Of a DNA stretch of 64,000 bases, positions 7,619 through 63,245 are shown piece after piece. A program made the position numbers and the translations under genes. Below the pieces are notes generated by a model. That model ran no database searches, was not told where the DNA came from, and saw nothing but the letters and a program-made list of their open reading frames with translations. This DNA is from Mizuhopecten yessoensis (taxonomy: Eukaryota), in contig NW_018405338.1 in NCBI RefSeq assembly GCF_002113885.1, positions 1,176,968 to 1,240,967 of the forward strand, given 5' to 3'. The first letter of the stretch is position 1, and each line of letters begins with the position of its first letter.

Positions 7619-8880
7619 AGGGACACCACGTGAAAAGGCGTGTTTTTTTTAATGAATGTATGTATTGTATGCACTTCCACTTATGTTACCACGCTATCCC
7701 CATATTCATAGTCCGTTCCAAATGTCCAGTTTGACCACTTGAATTGTTCGGGAAAGCCCTGCTAAAAATAGCGCCGATAACGTCACCCGACTAGGCAGTA
7801 AACACAAGTGGTGCGAGCGAGATGAAACGGTTTCCAAAGNNNNNNNNNNNNNNNNNNNNNNNNNNNNNNNNNNNNNNNNNNNNNNNNNNNNNNNNNNNNN
7901 NNNNNNNNNNNNNNNNNNNNNNNNNNNNNNNNNNNNNNNNNNNNNNNNNNNNNNNNNNNNNNNNNNNNNNNNNNNNNNNNNNNNNNNNNNNNNNNNNNNN
8001 NNNNNNNNNNNNNNNNNNNNNNNNNNNNNNNNNNNNNNNNNNNNNNNNNNNNNNNNNNNNNNNNNNNNNNNNNNNNNNNNNNNNNNNNNNNNNNNNNNNN
8101 NNNNNNNNNNNNNNNNNNNNNNNNNNNNNNNNNNNNNNNNNNNNNNNNNNNNNNNNNNNNNNNNNNNNNNNNNNNNNNNNNNNNNNNNNNNNNNNNNNNN
8201 NNNNNNNNNNNNNNNNNNNNNNNNNNNNNNNNNNNNNNNNNNNNNNNNNNNNNNNNNNNNNNNNNNNNNNNNNNNNNNNNNNNNNNNNNNNNNNNNNNNN
8301 NNNNNNNNNNNNNNNNNNNNNNNNNNNNNNNNNNNNNNNNNNNNNNNNNNNNNNNNNNNNNNNNNNNNNNNNNNNNNNNNNNNNNNNNNNNNNNNNNNNN
8401 NNNNNNNNNNNNNNNNNNNNNNNNNNNNNNNNNNNNNNNNNNNNNNNNNNNNNNNNNNGGCTATCCGGAAGAATACATGCACCGTACTAACTGCTACGGC
8501 AGTTATTTTCTCCTTTGAATACTGCCCACCTGCAATAATGATTCCGTAACGTACTCCTTGCGCTATCTTTTGACCATTTGGCAACTTTTCGTTTCGTAGC
8601 TGACACGGTACAACACTTTTCTTTCGCTTACTTCACACGGCCAGTCATTTTGTTTACAAAGAAATGGTGTGCTATGCGCATGCGCCAGTAGAGGGAAATC
8701 CCTGAACAAAACGTTGGTCAGACAGGTAGAAATACCGATGATTTTCTTAGATTTAATCATTTTTATGAATCTATTTCAGCCAAATCCGATCGTTATTTTC
8801 CATAAGGAGTCTCACTTGATATGTTTATGTAGTATTTGAAAAAAAGACAAAAAATAAAGTTACTTCACCGTGATGCCCCT
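7619..8880. mobile_element. Non-autonomous DNA transposon with TTAA target duplication (Kolobok-like), spanning the gap
   Basis: Left TTAA|AGGGACACCACGTG, right CACCGTGATGCCCCT|TTAA: imperfect TIRs beginning AGGG, flanked by TTAA. Confidence 0.6.
7840..8458. other. Assembly gap (619 N)
   Basis: Run of n characters. Confidence 1.
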
Positions 8881-10736: not shown

Positions 10737-12110
10737 TCACGCCTGCTCTATCTTTAAACGGCATTTGTCCCAATGCTCCCGACATTCTTCACGAAAGTTC
10801 TTGTTAATAATTGTATAAATTACAGGATTTGCAGCATTGTTAAGATAAAACAGATGCATGAAAAATGTTTCCATCGCCTTTCCGGTCTCTGACTGGCCGG
10901 CCATATACGACGGCGCGAATAACCAGCAAAACCTGATTACCCAGAATGGAAGCCAGGAGAGCAGGAACACCGCCGTCACTAAAAACAGGATTTTCGCCGC
11001 CTTTAACCTGGCCTTGTTACACTGTATACTCTCGTCCTTCCATTTCAACTTATCCTTTCGGGTCATTCTCGCAATTGCGTAGTTTTTCCTTCTTTGATGA
11101 TTTACTGAGCTGACCTTGTTGTCTTTCTGAACATATTTATTACAGTTTTTCAATATTGGCTGGTGTATCTTCTCTGTATCCAAATCCTTATATACACTCG
11201 CTGTGAACATGCTGGCGGTTAACGAAACATTCTCGATTGTTGACACAGAACAAATATCCGAAGATCTCGACAAGACCAGTGAGGGACTACCTATACCATC
11301 CTTACTTGTACTGCCTTGGTCTAACGAGGTTAGGAACGATCTTTTGTTTGCATATTTTTCGTTCTTTTTCGATGAATCAGTGACCAAGTCTTTGGGAGAA
11401 ACAAGTCGTAAGCGGCGTCGATAGGCTGTACGGGCAACACTGAAATACAGTATCATCATTCCTAAAACAATGACGCTAAAGTTTACAAACATAACCATTC
11501 CAAATGAAGCCATCGACAGTGACCCTTGATAAAGATCACTGAAGTCGCATACATATCCTTTGATAGTTCCTTGAACCGGAGTTGGTACTTCTATCATCCT
11601 CTTTCCGTAAAACTCAAGCAACGGTAGACTGACAACTATGCCTATTGCAAACGTTGCGATCAAAATACTCGTGGAATGTTTCTGATATTTTAGGAACTGA
11701 AATGGTCTGCAAATGGCAAGATACCTGTCCACGGCTACCACAAGTAAAACGATGGCGGATACGGACAATATGGAATGAATCAAAAACTCGAACAATTTGC
11801 ATGTCAATACCTGTTGTTGGTTATAGCTGTTAAATAACTTGGATATAACGTAGGGATGAATAGCCACGCAGGAAGTTAGATCTATACAGGCCAGAGTGAT
11901 TACGAAGCAGTTGGCAGTGGTTCGAACCTTACGAACGCTGTATATCCAGATCACAATCAGGTTACCGGGGATACCTATTATCATCAGAAGACACATAAAC
12001 GATAGCAAGGGAACACTCCGTATAACCATTTCATCATTTAGCTGGTCGATTGTCTTTTTCCAGCAAATAAAATCGCATGAAGCAAAGGAGGAATTGTTGC
12101 TAGTATTCAT
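10737..12110 (-). CDS. Rhodopsin-like (class A) GPCR, peptide-receptor type (CCK/gastrin-receptor-like orphan), intronless CDS, 457 aa
   Basis: Seven hydrophobic segments; TM1 GIPGN, TM2 LACID, TM3 Cys (CKLF) and VDRY-LAICRP, ECL2 Cys (YVCDF), long Ser-rich ICL3, TM6 FLLSWLPF, TM7 NNAANPVIY; N-terminal N-glycosylation sequons NTS/NNS/NSS. Confidence 0.96.
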   Translation of the reverse strand: MNTSNNSSFASCDFICWKKTIDQLNDEMVIRSVPLLSFMCLLMIIGIPGNLIVIWIYSVRKVRTTANCFVITLACIDLTSCVAIHPYVISKLFNSYNQQQVLTCKLFEFLIHSILSVSAIVLLVVAVDRYLAICRPFQFLKYQKHSTSILIATFAIGIVVSLPLLEFYGKRMIEVPTPVQGTIKGYVCDFSDLYQGSLSMASFGMVMFVNFSVIVLGMMILYFSVARTAYRRRLRLVSPKDLVTDSSKKNEKYANKRSFLTSLDQGSTSKDGIGSPSLVLSRSSDICSVSTIENVSLTASMFTASVYKDLDTEKIHQPILKNCNKYVQKDNKVSSVNHQRRKNYAIARMTRKDKLKWKDESIQCNKARLKAAKILFLVTAVFLLSWLPFWVIRFCWLFAPSYMAGQSETGKAMETFFMHLFYLNNAANPVIYTIINKNFREECREHWDKCRLKIEQA

Positions 12111-12423
12111 TATGATAAATACAATTTTTCACGAACATCTGAAATGAAAAGAAAGTTTTTTTATAATTGTATGTGATAAACTCAAAACCCATCATTTTTT
12201 TTACAATTATCCGTTTTCTGATGGACGTTTCAATATCCTTATTTTATTTTATTTTTAATGAGATTTTTCAATTAATATTTCATTTTTTGTTTACTGTAAA
12301 AAATTTATTCAGTTTTTTGTTTGCTACGGTATTAAAGCATTCAAAGTAGTTAAGGTAATAAAAACATACTAAAACACTGAAATATCATAACCGCCAGATC
12401 ACATAAGACTAAAACAGACTTAC

Positions 12424-54973: not shown

Positions 54974-55018
54974 ATGACGACGAACTACGAATCATATCTG
55001 AAAACATCTCTAGCCAAG
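54974..55018 (+). CDS. TSG101: Tumor susceptibility gene 101 (ESCRT-I), exon 1
   Basis: MTTNYESYLKTSLAK, donor AAG|GTGAGT, phase 0; joins in frame to YKYADI. Confidence 0.85.
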
Positions 55019-56062: not shown

Positions 56063-56147
56063 TATAAGTATGCAGACATTGCCAAAAGAGATGTACTGAA
56101 TGTATTTCAACAATTCAAGGACCTTCGACCAGCTTACAATCCTTACA
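56063..56147 (+). CDS. TSG101: TSG101 exon 2 (UEV domain)
   Basis: TTTCAG|YKYADIAKRDVLNVFQQFKDLRPAYNPY|GTGAGT, 85 bp; resembles TSG101 'YKYRDLT...YKDLKP'. Confidence 0.93.
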
Positions 56148-57867: not shown

Positions 57868-57933
57868 TTTTCAATGATGGGTCGAAAAAGGAGCTCTTGA
57901 ATTTGGACGGGACTATTCCTGTATCATACAGAA
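57868..57933 (+). CDS. TSG101: TSG101 exon 3 (UEV domain)
   Basis: TTGCAG|(I)FNDGSKKELLNLDGTIPVSYR|GTAAGT, 66 bp; conserved 'FNDGS..EL.NL.GTIPV.YR'. Confidence 0.95.
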
Positions 57934-59530: not shown

Positions 59531-59855
59531 ATAACATTGTTTGTCCGTGTTTTTACAGATGTTACCTATAACATTGGGTGTCTGTGTTTACAGATGTTAC
59601 CTATAACATTGGTTGTCTGTGTTTACAGGTGTTATCTATAACATTGGGTGTCCGTGTGTTTACAGATGTTACCAATAACATTGTTTGTCCGTTTGTTTAC
59701 AGATGTTAGCTATAACATTGGGTGTTTGTGTTTACAGGTGTTACCTATACCATTGGGTGTCTGTGTGTACAGGTGTTACCTATACCATTGGGTGTCTGTG
59801 TTTTCAGGTGTTACCTATAACATTGGGTGTCTGTGTTTACAGGTGTTACCTATAA
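59531..59855 (+). repeat. 35-37-bp tandem repeat of the TSG101 intron 3/exon 4 junction (9 acceptor copies)
   Basis: Unit RTGTTACCTATAACATTGGGTGTCTGTGTTTACAG; the last unit runs directly into coding exon 4. Confidence 0.95.
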
Positions 59856-60006
59856 TATCCCAGTGTGTATCTGGATCCTGGACACGCACCCCTACAATCC
59901 TCCAATGGTCTTTGTCAAACCTACAACCAGCATGCAGATCAAACAGGGGAGAAATGTCGACGCCAACGGCAAAGTGGATCTGCCCTATCTCCGCGACTGG
60001 AGATAT
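59843..60006 (+). CDS. TSG101: TSG101 exon 4 (UEV domain)
   Basis: 164 bp; (S)VTYNIPVCIWILDTHPYNPPMVFVKPTTSMQIKQGRNVDANGKVDLPYLRDWRY|GTAAGC, a highly characteristic TSG101/Vps23 UEV sequence. Confidence 0.96.
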
Positions 60007-61033: not shown

Positions 61034-61184
61034 CCTCAATCGGACCTACTTGGATTGATACAGATACTTGTGATTGTATTTAGCGATGATCCTCCAGTAT
61101 TTTCCCGGGGTCAGGCTCAGGCACAGCGACAGCAGCAGCAATACTCCCAACAACAGCCATCCAACCTTCCATACCCCTCACAAG
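61034..61184 (+). CDS. TSG101: TSG101 exon 5 (end of UEV, start of Pro/Gln-rich region); gene continues past window end
   Basis: TTTCAG|PQSDLLGLIQILVIVFSDDPPVFSRGQAQAQRQQQQYSQQQPSNLPYPSQ(G)|GTATAC, 151 bp. Confidence 0.93.
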
Positions 61185-61709: not shown

Positions 61710-61890
61710 AGAGGTAAGTATTTTTGTCATATCTCTCGAGTCCCTTCACATGCGCCAATGTAACAGAGGTAAGTATTTTTGTCATATCTCTCGAGTCCCT
61801 ACGCGTGCGCCAATGTAACAGAGGTAAGTACTTTTGTCATATCTCTCGAGTCCCTACGTGTGCGCCAATGTAACAGAGGTAATTATTTTT
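61710..61890. repeat. 55-bp tandem repeat, ~3.3 copies
   Basis: AGAGGTAAGTATTTTTGTCATATCTCTCGAGTCCCT...TGCGCCAATGTAAC. Confidence 0.92.
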
Positions 61891-63245
61891 TTCAATGCCT
61901 CCGCCAAGGGTCGAACCTACACTCTACGGAATGAGCTAATGGGAAATTCTCCCTCGCCAAGTCGGTAGGAAGCGGCTAGTATTTTACCAGGGTGACACAT
62001 GTATACTAATAAAACTAACATTTACGGAATCCTTGGTGGTGATGCTCCATCACTTACCTATTTGTATCAAACTGGAAGAAACAAACCATGATAAAACTGC
62101 CATTTACATTTCCACAAATTTATCTGGTCCAGTTCCCTCATTGGTCTAAGGGAGACAACTCAACCAATCTATTGCCAAGTGAGATCAGTGTTGGCAAAAT
62201 CACTGTCAAAAATGTCTTTGTAGCAAATTCCAAGAAAGAAAATAGGACCAAGGAGAAATAAGAAGGAGGCAACCCTGTTGTGACTCTGAAACAGGATGAA
62301 GTTGACACTGATGAACTGTGGCAACAGATCAATTGCTACAGCAGCTGATTCTGCAGTTATTTCAGATGATAAGTCAAACAAAGAAATGCTTTTGTACAAA
62401 AACATTAGTCCTAGTAGTGGCATTTATACCAGAACTGCTTGATGTAATGAGGCCAGGAATTTCAAGAATTTTTATATAAAGAATGTAACGTAGAGGGCTG
62501 GCTGATGACAATGTTTTGGGAAACCACATCCTCAATACTCCAGGGGTTACTCTCACTTACGCTCTCTGCATCCCTGGAAAATGTCACAGCAAAATAGAAG
62601 GCATGATTCTAGTTCTTTGATTGGTCACCTACTTTTTCTCTGAGTTACCATAGAGCGCACTCTTCAACAAACTTTATATTTCACCTAAAGATGTATTACA
62701 GGTGCCTACACATTATCCTTTGATATTAAGTTTGTTCAAGCATGCGCTCTATAGTTTCTAGGAGAAAAACTATGCAAAATATCACAATATTCATTGAATA
62801 TTCATTTTTTTCTAATTTATGCAAATTTGAACTTGTTACCATGGCAACAATAATTAGAAATATAAATAAATGTTTTCATGATAGTATTTGGGAAGTATTC
62901 TAAGTTAAAGAAACAGTCATTTCAAAGTTCATTTAAAGGTTTTGAATTTTGATGCATTTGCGGGGGCAAAACAGGCCCAAACCATATATAGTCCTTTCAG
63001 GGGTGAATGAGTTACACTTAGAAGAGTCACTGGTCTGGGTTCTTTAGTGATACTTTAAGAATGCAGCAGAACTTTTCAAAATAATAAAGGGATTTTTTTT
63101 TTTTTGATGAAGCCATGTTTCACTGCACCATGCAACTGAAGAAATTCCACGTAAAGTTTCATGCACTTAACTTTCATTGCTTTCTAGCTATAGGAGCTTG
63201 GTTAGAAGGACAAATCTCTCTGAGGAGGGTCCAGAAGTTGACATG

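What the first reader, a model, noticed from the sequence alone, without database searches (positions are those of the whole stretch)
59531..59855. Nine tandem copies of the TSG101 exon-4 splice acceptor; only the last yields intact protein
Seen: the minisatellite unit is the acceptor (TGTCTGTGTTTACAG) plus the first ~13 coding nt (GTGTTACCTATAA). CAG acceptors end at 59558, 59593, 59628, 59665, 59702, 59737, 59772, 59807 and 59842. Relative to 59842, five upstream sites shift frame. The three in-frame ones (59593, 59665, 59737) stop at or before TAA 59818-59820. Five units read CAG|GT, so each regenerates a GT after splicing. Established: TSG101 is a core ESCRT-I gene, and AG|GT sites underlie recursive splicing and the tandem-duplication model of intron gain. 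Inference: the spliceosome must select the ninth near-identical acceptor (exon definition) or ratchet through the array. The array could act as a copy-number-variable AS-NMD rheostat or a nascent-intron intermediate.
Basis: partly seen in the sequence, partly recalled or inferred. Interest (0 to 1): 0.72.

Follow-up and report, generated by a model that had tools for sequence, protein, structure and literature searches.

The report
Splice-acceptor "mirage" repeat in scallop TSG101
In a scallop's TSG101 gene the end of an intron plus the first bases of the next exon are repeated nine times in a row, but the assembled RNA uses the last, true copy (one sample also skips the exon), so this is likely a tolerated repeat of a kind known from lancelets and fairly common in this genome, not a regulatory switch.

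Summary
A 35-nt minisatellite (9.1 copies, 59531-59855) spans the intron 3/exon 4 border of TSG101, and the exon matches the protein named for Mizuhopecten yessoensis. All nine CAG positions and frames are right; only 59842 among them rebuilds the 438-aa protein. Contigs of 5 of 5 RNA or RNA-like runs join exon 3 to the ninth acceptor. No listed joint uses the other eight, though contigs drop minor forms. One run (X14) also skips exon 4 (depth 30 against 79), which gives a premature stop. The regenerated donors are weak (4/9 consensus matches; real donors 6-9/9), so ratcheting is unlikely. This is a 'mirage' as described in amphioxus. The same gene carries a second, donor-side one at exon 9. 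In 252 kinesin, myosin and DEAD exon matches of this genome, 15 had donor-spanning and 4 acceptor-spanning arrays; acceptor arrays are rarer than background. The scan has noted such arrays before, in this genome (donor type) and in others. Best reading: a tolerated, perhaps mildly costly passenger that exon definition likely bypasses. Open: whether array alleles cause the skipping.

The parts
59531..59855 (+). Acceptor-type boundary minisatellite: 9.1 units of 35-37 nt, each made of about 26 nt of intron 3 end plus about 9-13 nt of exon 4 start
59556..59807 (+). Eight upstream pseudo-acceptors (CAG ending 59558, 59593, 59628, 59665, 59702, 59737, 59772, 59807); each would give a premature stop 842-1232 nt upstream of the last junction
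   Evidence: no joint to them among the rows listed
59817..59842 (+). Working acceptor (ninth unit). Its branch-point-like TAAC about 21 nt upstream is made of the copied exon sequence of unit 8 (function inferred)
59843..60006 (+). TSG101 exon 4 (164 nt, UEV domain PF05743); skipped in one contig path of run X14
57868..57933 (+). TSG101 exon 3 with the donor at 57933
61034..61184 (+). TSG101 exon 5, the landing site of the exon 4 skip
59531..59537 (+). Intronic microhomology (6 of 7 bases like 59852-59858 in the exon) at the array's 5' edge; likely seed of the first duplication
   Evidence: sequence; unit borders
59852..59858 (+). Exonic partner of that microhomology at the array's 3' edge
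54974..55018 (+). TSG101 exon 1, coding part
56063..56147 (+). TSG101 exon 2

Best explanation
The array is a splice-acceptor 'mirage' minisatellite that likely arose by slippage between two 7-nt look-alike stretches flanking the intron 3/exon 4 border and is likely tolerated because exon definition favours the ninth acceptor, which the assembled RNA uses. Shown: the repeat's anatomy, dominant use of 59842, premature stops for every upstream acceptor, exon 4 skipping in one run, and the frequency of such arrays in this genome. Inferred: (1) origin by microhomology-mediated duplication followed by unit turnover; (2) choice of the last site because only it is followed by real exon sequence and gives a 164-nt exon, not because its core signal is stronger; (3) removal of leak products by NMD; (4) a mild cost, since acceptor arrays are rarer than donor arrays and may weaken exon 4 inclusion.
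For: Joint 57933->59843 at the same depth as the neighbouring exon joints in X13 (844), X15 (485) and X14 (79), and in X16 (364); X11 has the equal-length joint 57936->59846 (32). Core signal does not explain the choice: units 1 and 5 have more pyrimidines (12 vs 10 of 17), unit 1 has a CTGAT branch motif, and unit 2 is identical to unit 9 upstream of the AG. A 4-mer exon/intron score trained on 252 exon matches is positive only after the ninth AG (+0.14; others -0.09 to -0.45), and 164 nt is close to the median match length of 171. Units 7 and 8 have lost the TAAC motif. The gene has a second boundary array at the exon 9 donor. In the survey, 15 of 252 exon matches have donor-spanning and 4 of 252 acceptor-spanning arrays. 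Amphioxus mirages, including the acceptor type in BflGb6, are reported not to disturb splicing (PMC3087553 and PMC3902484, passages).
Against: X14 shows the skip joint 57933->61034 at depth 30 beside 79.4 for inclusion, so splicing is not always clean. The contigs are simplified graphs that drop minor paths (tool text; Logan preprint passages). Only 15 of 256 joints and 15 of 18 were shown, so minor use of upstream acceptors is not excluded. The exon-likeness score is crude: real exons 2 and 5 score -0.19 and -0.13. No NMD-blocked data, raw reads, array genotypes or orthologous introns were available.
Confidence: 0.72

Rival explanations
1. The array is a cis-acting splicing variant: certain array alleles (length or unit order) weaken exon 4 definition and cause skipping and NMD, so TSG101 output varies between animals.
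For: In X14, exon 4 has a skip path at roughly a quarter of junction depth (30 of 30+79). In the same run exons 1-3 lie on one 317-nt contig, and an unbroken 1530-nt contig starts at exon 5 and by length is inferred to cover exons 5-11, so exon 4 would be the only internal exon with a retained skip. X16, from the same study, shows no skip, which fits an individual effect. Acceptor arrays are depleted in the survey (4 of 252; control windows 12-19).
Against: One run of five and one contig. The chance that a random skipped exon is this one is about 1 in 9. Tissue, stress or an unrelated variant could explain it. No genotype is linked to X14, and contig depth is a poor measure of isoform share.
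Confidence: 0.17
2. Recursive splicing: exon 3 is joined to a CAG|GT unit and re-spliced onward, or the ninth unit acts as an RS-exon start, which would also give the X14 skip.
For: Five units read CAG|GT. RS-exon re-splicing yields a product identical to exon skipping (PMC6224609, passages).
Against: The regenerated donor matches 4 of 9 consensus positions against 6-9 for real donors, and that paper states that efficient RS needs a strong RS-5ss. The intron is only 1909 nt. No intermediate joint was listed. An apparently exon-free 45-copy array elsewhere also carries CAG|GT in most units (L010), so the motif alone means little.
Confidence: 0.05
3. A selected, regulated AS-NMD switch that uses the upstream acceptors as poison options.
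For: All eight upstream acceptors give premature stops far upstream of the last junction.
Against: Stops are the default for this unit. No use of these acceptors was seen. Similar arrays occur at several percent of exon borders in unrelated genes.
Confidence: 0.04
4. Nascent intron gain by tandem duplication of an AG|GT site.
For: Proposed as a long-term fate of mirages (PMC3087553, passage).
Against: The copies sit in an existing intron, no unit is used as an exon, and the CDS has no new intron.
Confidence: 0.02

Closest known systems
Amphioxus 'mirage' minisatellites: globin BflGb6 (acceptor type), BflGb9, Adh3, troponin C, PGBD5 (PMC3087553 and PMC3902484, passages read; the original Adh3 paper was not held)
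   Same: Tandem copies of an intron 3' end plus the start of the next exon, with AG signals in the units and the regular transcript kept. The unit size lies within the Adh3 range of 10-72 bp.
   Different: Found in a mollusc. All nine AGs are intact and near-identical. One RNA run skips the exon. Length instability was not tested here.
Human F7 intron 7 37-bp VNTR (PMC1557585; abstract and Discussion read)
   Same: A minisatellite across an exon border with 5-9 look-alike sites, of which only the exon-adjacent one is used. Exon skipping appears when the proper site is impaired.
   Different: F7 is donor-side and is explained by 5'-to-3' scanning. Here the used site is the last AG, which simple scanning from the first branch point would not choose.
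RS-exons and recursive splicing (PMC6224609, passages read)
   Same: The exon starts with GT, and the skip product is the same as from recursive re-splicing.
   Different: The regenerated donor is weak, the intron is short, and no intermediate was seen.
Human TSG101 aberrant re-splicing, TSG101 delta154-1054 (PMC3439910, search listing and start of abstract only)
   Same: Same gene, non-productive splicing.
   Different: It uses cryptic sites within exons 2 and 9 in cancers; no repeat array is mentioned in what was seen.

Membership tests
Mirage minisatellite | Tandem repeat whose unit spans an intron-exon border | tested here: met
Mirage minisatellite | Minisatellite-size unit (10-160 bp in PMC3087553) with similar copies | tested here: met
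   35-37 nt, 88% matches
Mirage minisatellite | Units carry spare splice signals | tested here: met
   9 of 9 units end in CAG
Mirage minisatellite | Regular splicing to the authentic site persists | tested here: met
   Ninth acceptor used in 5 of 5 RNA-like runs; one also skips the exon; minor forms not resolved
Mirage minisatellite | Length instability between haplotypes or cells | not testable with these tools
   Contigs built from 31-mers do not span the array; one DNA-like run was laid
Mirage minisatellite | Turnover with concerted evolution of units | tested here: inconclusive
   Units 7 and 8 share TACC; units 6-9 differ by 1-3 bases; units 1 and 5 share a T-rich tract; unit 9 is central rather than set apart
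Recursive splice site / RS-exon | Regenerated 5' splice site as strong as canonical ones | tested here: not met
   4 of 9 consensus matches vs 6-9 of 9; a crude count against a recalled consensus, MaxEntScan not available
Recursive splice site / RS-exon | Part-spliced intermediates or lariats at the site | tested here: inconclusive
   None among the listed joints; contigs are insensitive
Regulated AS-NMD switch | Alternative product has a stop well upstream of the last junction | tested here: met
   817-1232 nt upstream for the skip and all eight acceptors
Regulated AS-NMD switch | Isoform is produced and rises on NMD inhibition | not testable with these tools
   Skip seen in 1 of 5 runs; no NMD-blocked data
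Regulated AS-NMD switch | Conserved across species | not testable with these tools
   No relative's genome is held
Tandem-duplication intron gain | A new intron between duplicated AG|GT sites is spliced out of coding sequence | tested here: not met
   The CDS equals P0002 with no array-derived exon

The most novel reading that the evidence does not exclude
Acceptor-side mirages are selected against in scallops, and this survivor is a natural splicing QTL: array alleles set how often TSG101 exon 4 is skipped into NMD, tuning a core ESCRT-I gene between individuals. The genome's many boundary arrays would then be a large natural experiment on donor versus acceptor choice.
Probability: 0.14. Interest if true: 0.6.

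Novelty: new member of a known kind. Interest (0 to 1): 0.27.

Why it matters
As a single locus it is ordinary. Two side results have some value. First, about 6% of sampled exon matches have a donor-spanning array and about 1.6% an acceptor-spanning one. Donor arrays occur at the intronic background rate, while acceptor arrays are about three- to four-fold depleted, which suggests that duplicated acceptors cost more than duplicated donors. Second, exon 4 skipping in one sample makes a direct test possible: whether boundary-array alleles act as splicing QTL in a farmed shellfish, and how the last of nine near-identical 3' splice sites is chosen.

Tried and rejected
RNA structure as the selector: local folding leaves the ninth YAG no more open than the others (unpaired probability 0.017 vs 0.056-0.187 at window 80), so it was rejected. 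The idea that CAG|AT units preserve the ancestral codon is unresolved: scallop proteins have Asn (4 records) or Ser (2) and 44 other matches have Gly, so the direction of change is unknown. A search for short truncated isoform proteins gave one unrelated-looking fragment among 2 candidates and is uninformative. Near-zero RNA depth over the array bins is not used as evidence, because contigs drop such paths. Other genomic hits of the array are 66-71% alike, apart from one 40-nt flank match at 90%; the two looked at (L002, L010) are separate GT-rich minisatellites, not the same family. The first survey run reversed some loci wrongly and showed a false acceptor case; it was redone. Exon 7 coordinates were off and were fixed. 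Literature: searches listed no paper on this locus or on mollusc mirages. The library lacks most subscription journals, and no supplements were read.

Full report
Observation. The array is real: period 35, 9.1 copies, 88% matches at 59531-59855. The translated exon 59845-60006 matches Pfam UEV and is 100% identical to P0002, named TSG101-like of Mizuhopecten yessoensis. With two neighbouring stretches, an 11-exon CDS that uses 59842 translates exactly to P0002. Each of the eight upstream acceptors gives a stop 842-1232 nt upstream of the last junction. This is the default outcome, because a 35-nt unit that carries TAA is read in every frame within three units.

RNA evidence. Of 18 runs listed I laid six: five RNA or RNA-like (X11, X13, X14, X15, X16; three studies) and one DNA-like (X5). 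All are assembled contigs. Exon 3 joins 59843 at the depth of the neighbouring joints in X13, X15 and X14 and in X16. In X11 the joint reads 57936->59846, the same 1909-nt skip, probably because of a variant at 59845 (the variant is inferred). No joint to an upstream AG was among the rows shown (15 of 256, 15 of 18). Contigs are simplified graphs (Logan preprint passages), so this bounds only abundant forms. Against a fully clean picture, X14 has a second path, 57933->61034, that skips exon 4 at depth 30 beside 79.4. It would stop after 81 aa. In X14 exons 1-3 sit on one contig, and a 1530-nt contig starts at exon 5, so by inference no other internal exon has a retained skip. X16 of the same study shows none. 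This is one contig in one run, and nothing ties it to the array.

Artefact check. X11 contigs match the 5' flank and first units, and an X5 contig matches the last acceptor and exon 4 exactly. With the differences among units, this makes a collapse or expansion artefact unlikely. Length was not genotyped.

Why the ninth site. Core strength does not explain it. Unit 1 has the better tract and a CTGAT branch motif, and unit 2 equals unit 9 upstream of the AG. Predicted structure does not explain it either. What sets it apart is context: a 164-nt exon instead of 199-448 nt, and the only exon-like downstream 50 nt by a crude 4-mer score, one that misjudges real exons 2 and 5. The two nearest competitors have lost the TAAC motif, a single shared change. 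Exon definition is therefore inferred, not shown. The array's edges fall in two 7-nt stretches that agree at 6 positions, one intronic (59531) and one exonic (59852), which suggests a microhomology-seeded duplication.

Recursive splicing and intron gain. After joining to exon 3 the regenerated donor matches 4 of 9 positions of a recalled consensus, while the ten real donors match 6-9. PMC6224609 (passages) says efficient recursive splicing needs a strong regenerated site. The distances from the GT units to the true acceptor are 214, 105, 70 and 35 nt. The skip in X14 would look the same under recursion, so it is not strictly excluded. No new intron or microexon is in the CDS.

Base rate. The same gene has a second boundary array beyond the window (G000:C2011:1245075-1245588; 95-nt unit, 5.4 copies). 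It repeats the exon 9 end and donor, and P0002 uses the first donor. I searched the genome with kinesin, myosin head and DEAD profiles (127, 85 and 55 matches). Ten matches were not fetched and 5 had short flanks, leaving 252. TRF flagged 16 donor-side and 6 acceptor-side arrays. Control windows of equal width in the flanks held 9-13 array starts and 12-19 array ends. By eye I dropped one donor case (it begins after the GT) and two acceptor cases (no exon bases copied), leaving 15 and 4, three of the four with an intact spare AG. Fisher P is 0.017; for arrays of five or more copies it is 11 vs 1, P 0.006. Caveats: profile edges only approximate exon edges, exons of one gene and paralogues are not independent, the curation was not blind, and none of these loci was checked against RNA. 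Boundary arrays are thus common here, and long acceptor arrays like this one are the rarer class.

Comparison. The anatomy matches amphioxus mirages, above all globin BflGb6, where RT-PCR suggested normal splicing and haplotypes differ in unit number (PMC3087553, passages; PMC3902484, passage). Human F7 intron 7 is the donor-side parallel (PMC1557585, abstract and Discussion). Earlier unreviewed notes of this scan describe donor arrays in this genome and acceptor arrays in other animals. They agree with this reading but are not independent evidence.

Verdict. A new member of a known kind, most likely a tolerated passenger (0.72). The live alternative is an allele-dependent effect on exon 4 skipping (0.17). 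Interest 0.27.

Noticed in passing
L011:5076-5589 (G000:C2011:1245075-1245588, beyond the window): Second mirage in the same gene: 95-nt unit, 5.4 copies of the exon 9 end plus donor. Inner units form AG|37 nt|GT pseudo-exons. Any later donor gives a stop at 375 aa.
   Followed up: partly
window 57933->61034: Exon 4 skip joint in run X14 only (depth 30 vs 79.4).
   Followed up: partly
window 59845: Run X11 lays exon 4 from 59846 with joint 57936->59846, implying a variant at the third exon base (would be Val to Ile); inferred, letters not shown.
   Followed up: partly
window 59843-59844: The junction codon is Ser here and in Ylistrum, Asn in Pecten, Argopecten and two unnamed records, and Gly in other molluscs; the array holds both the Ser-type and the Asn-type start.
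   Followed up: partly
window 61710-61894: 55-nt intronic array whose units contain a donor-like GTAAGT; its last unit overlaps the end of a dispersed repeat (413 candidates); no TSG101 exon lies beside it.
   Followed up: partly
L169 (G000:C4496, upstream of 196769), L161, L150, L132: Other acceptor-side duplications in myosin and DEAD-box genes: 38 nt x18, 59 nt x2, about 47 nt x2-3, and 44 nt x2 with the spare AG lost.
   Followed up: partly
L035, L039, L044, L053, L054, L057, L058, L073, L074, L091, L095, L028, L157, L166, L180: Fifteen donor-spanning arrays in kinesin and myosin genes, up to about 21 copies within the 700-nt flank examined.
   Followed up: partly
L010:1402-3039: 37-nt x45 minisatellite with a pyrimidine tract and CAG|GT in most units; no adjoining exon seen by eye.
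   Followed up: partly
L011, about 2040-2710 (intron 6): Degenerate 22-nt array ending about 35 nt before the exon 7 acceptor, which is a pyrimidine-poor ACAACAG site.
   Followed up: no
window 10737-12128 (-): Single long ORF of 463 aa matching a rhodopsin-family GPCR (PF00001, E 1e-34).
   Followed up: no
window 7706-8632: Overlapping stop-free frames of 225-308 aa in all six frames; no Pfam match for the longest, the only one scanned, and no TRF array listed there.
   Followed up: no
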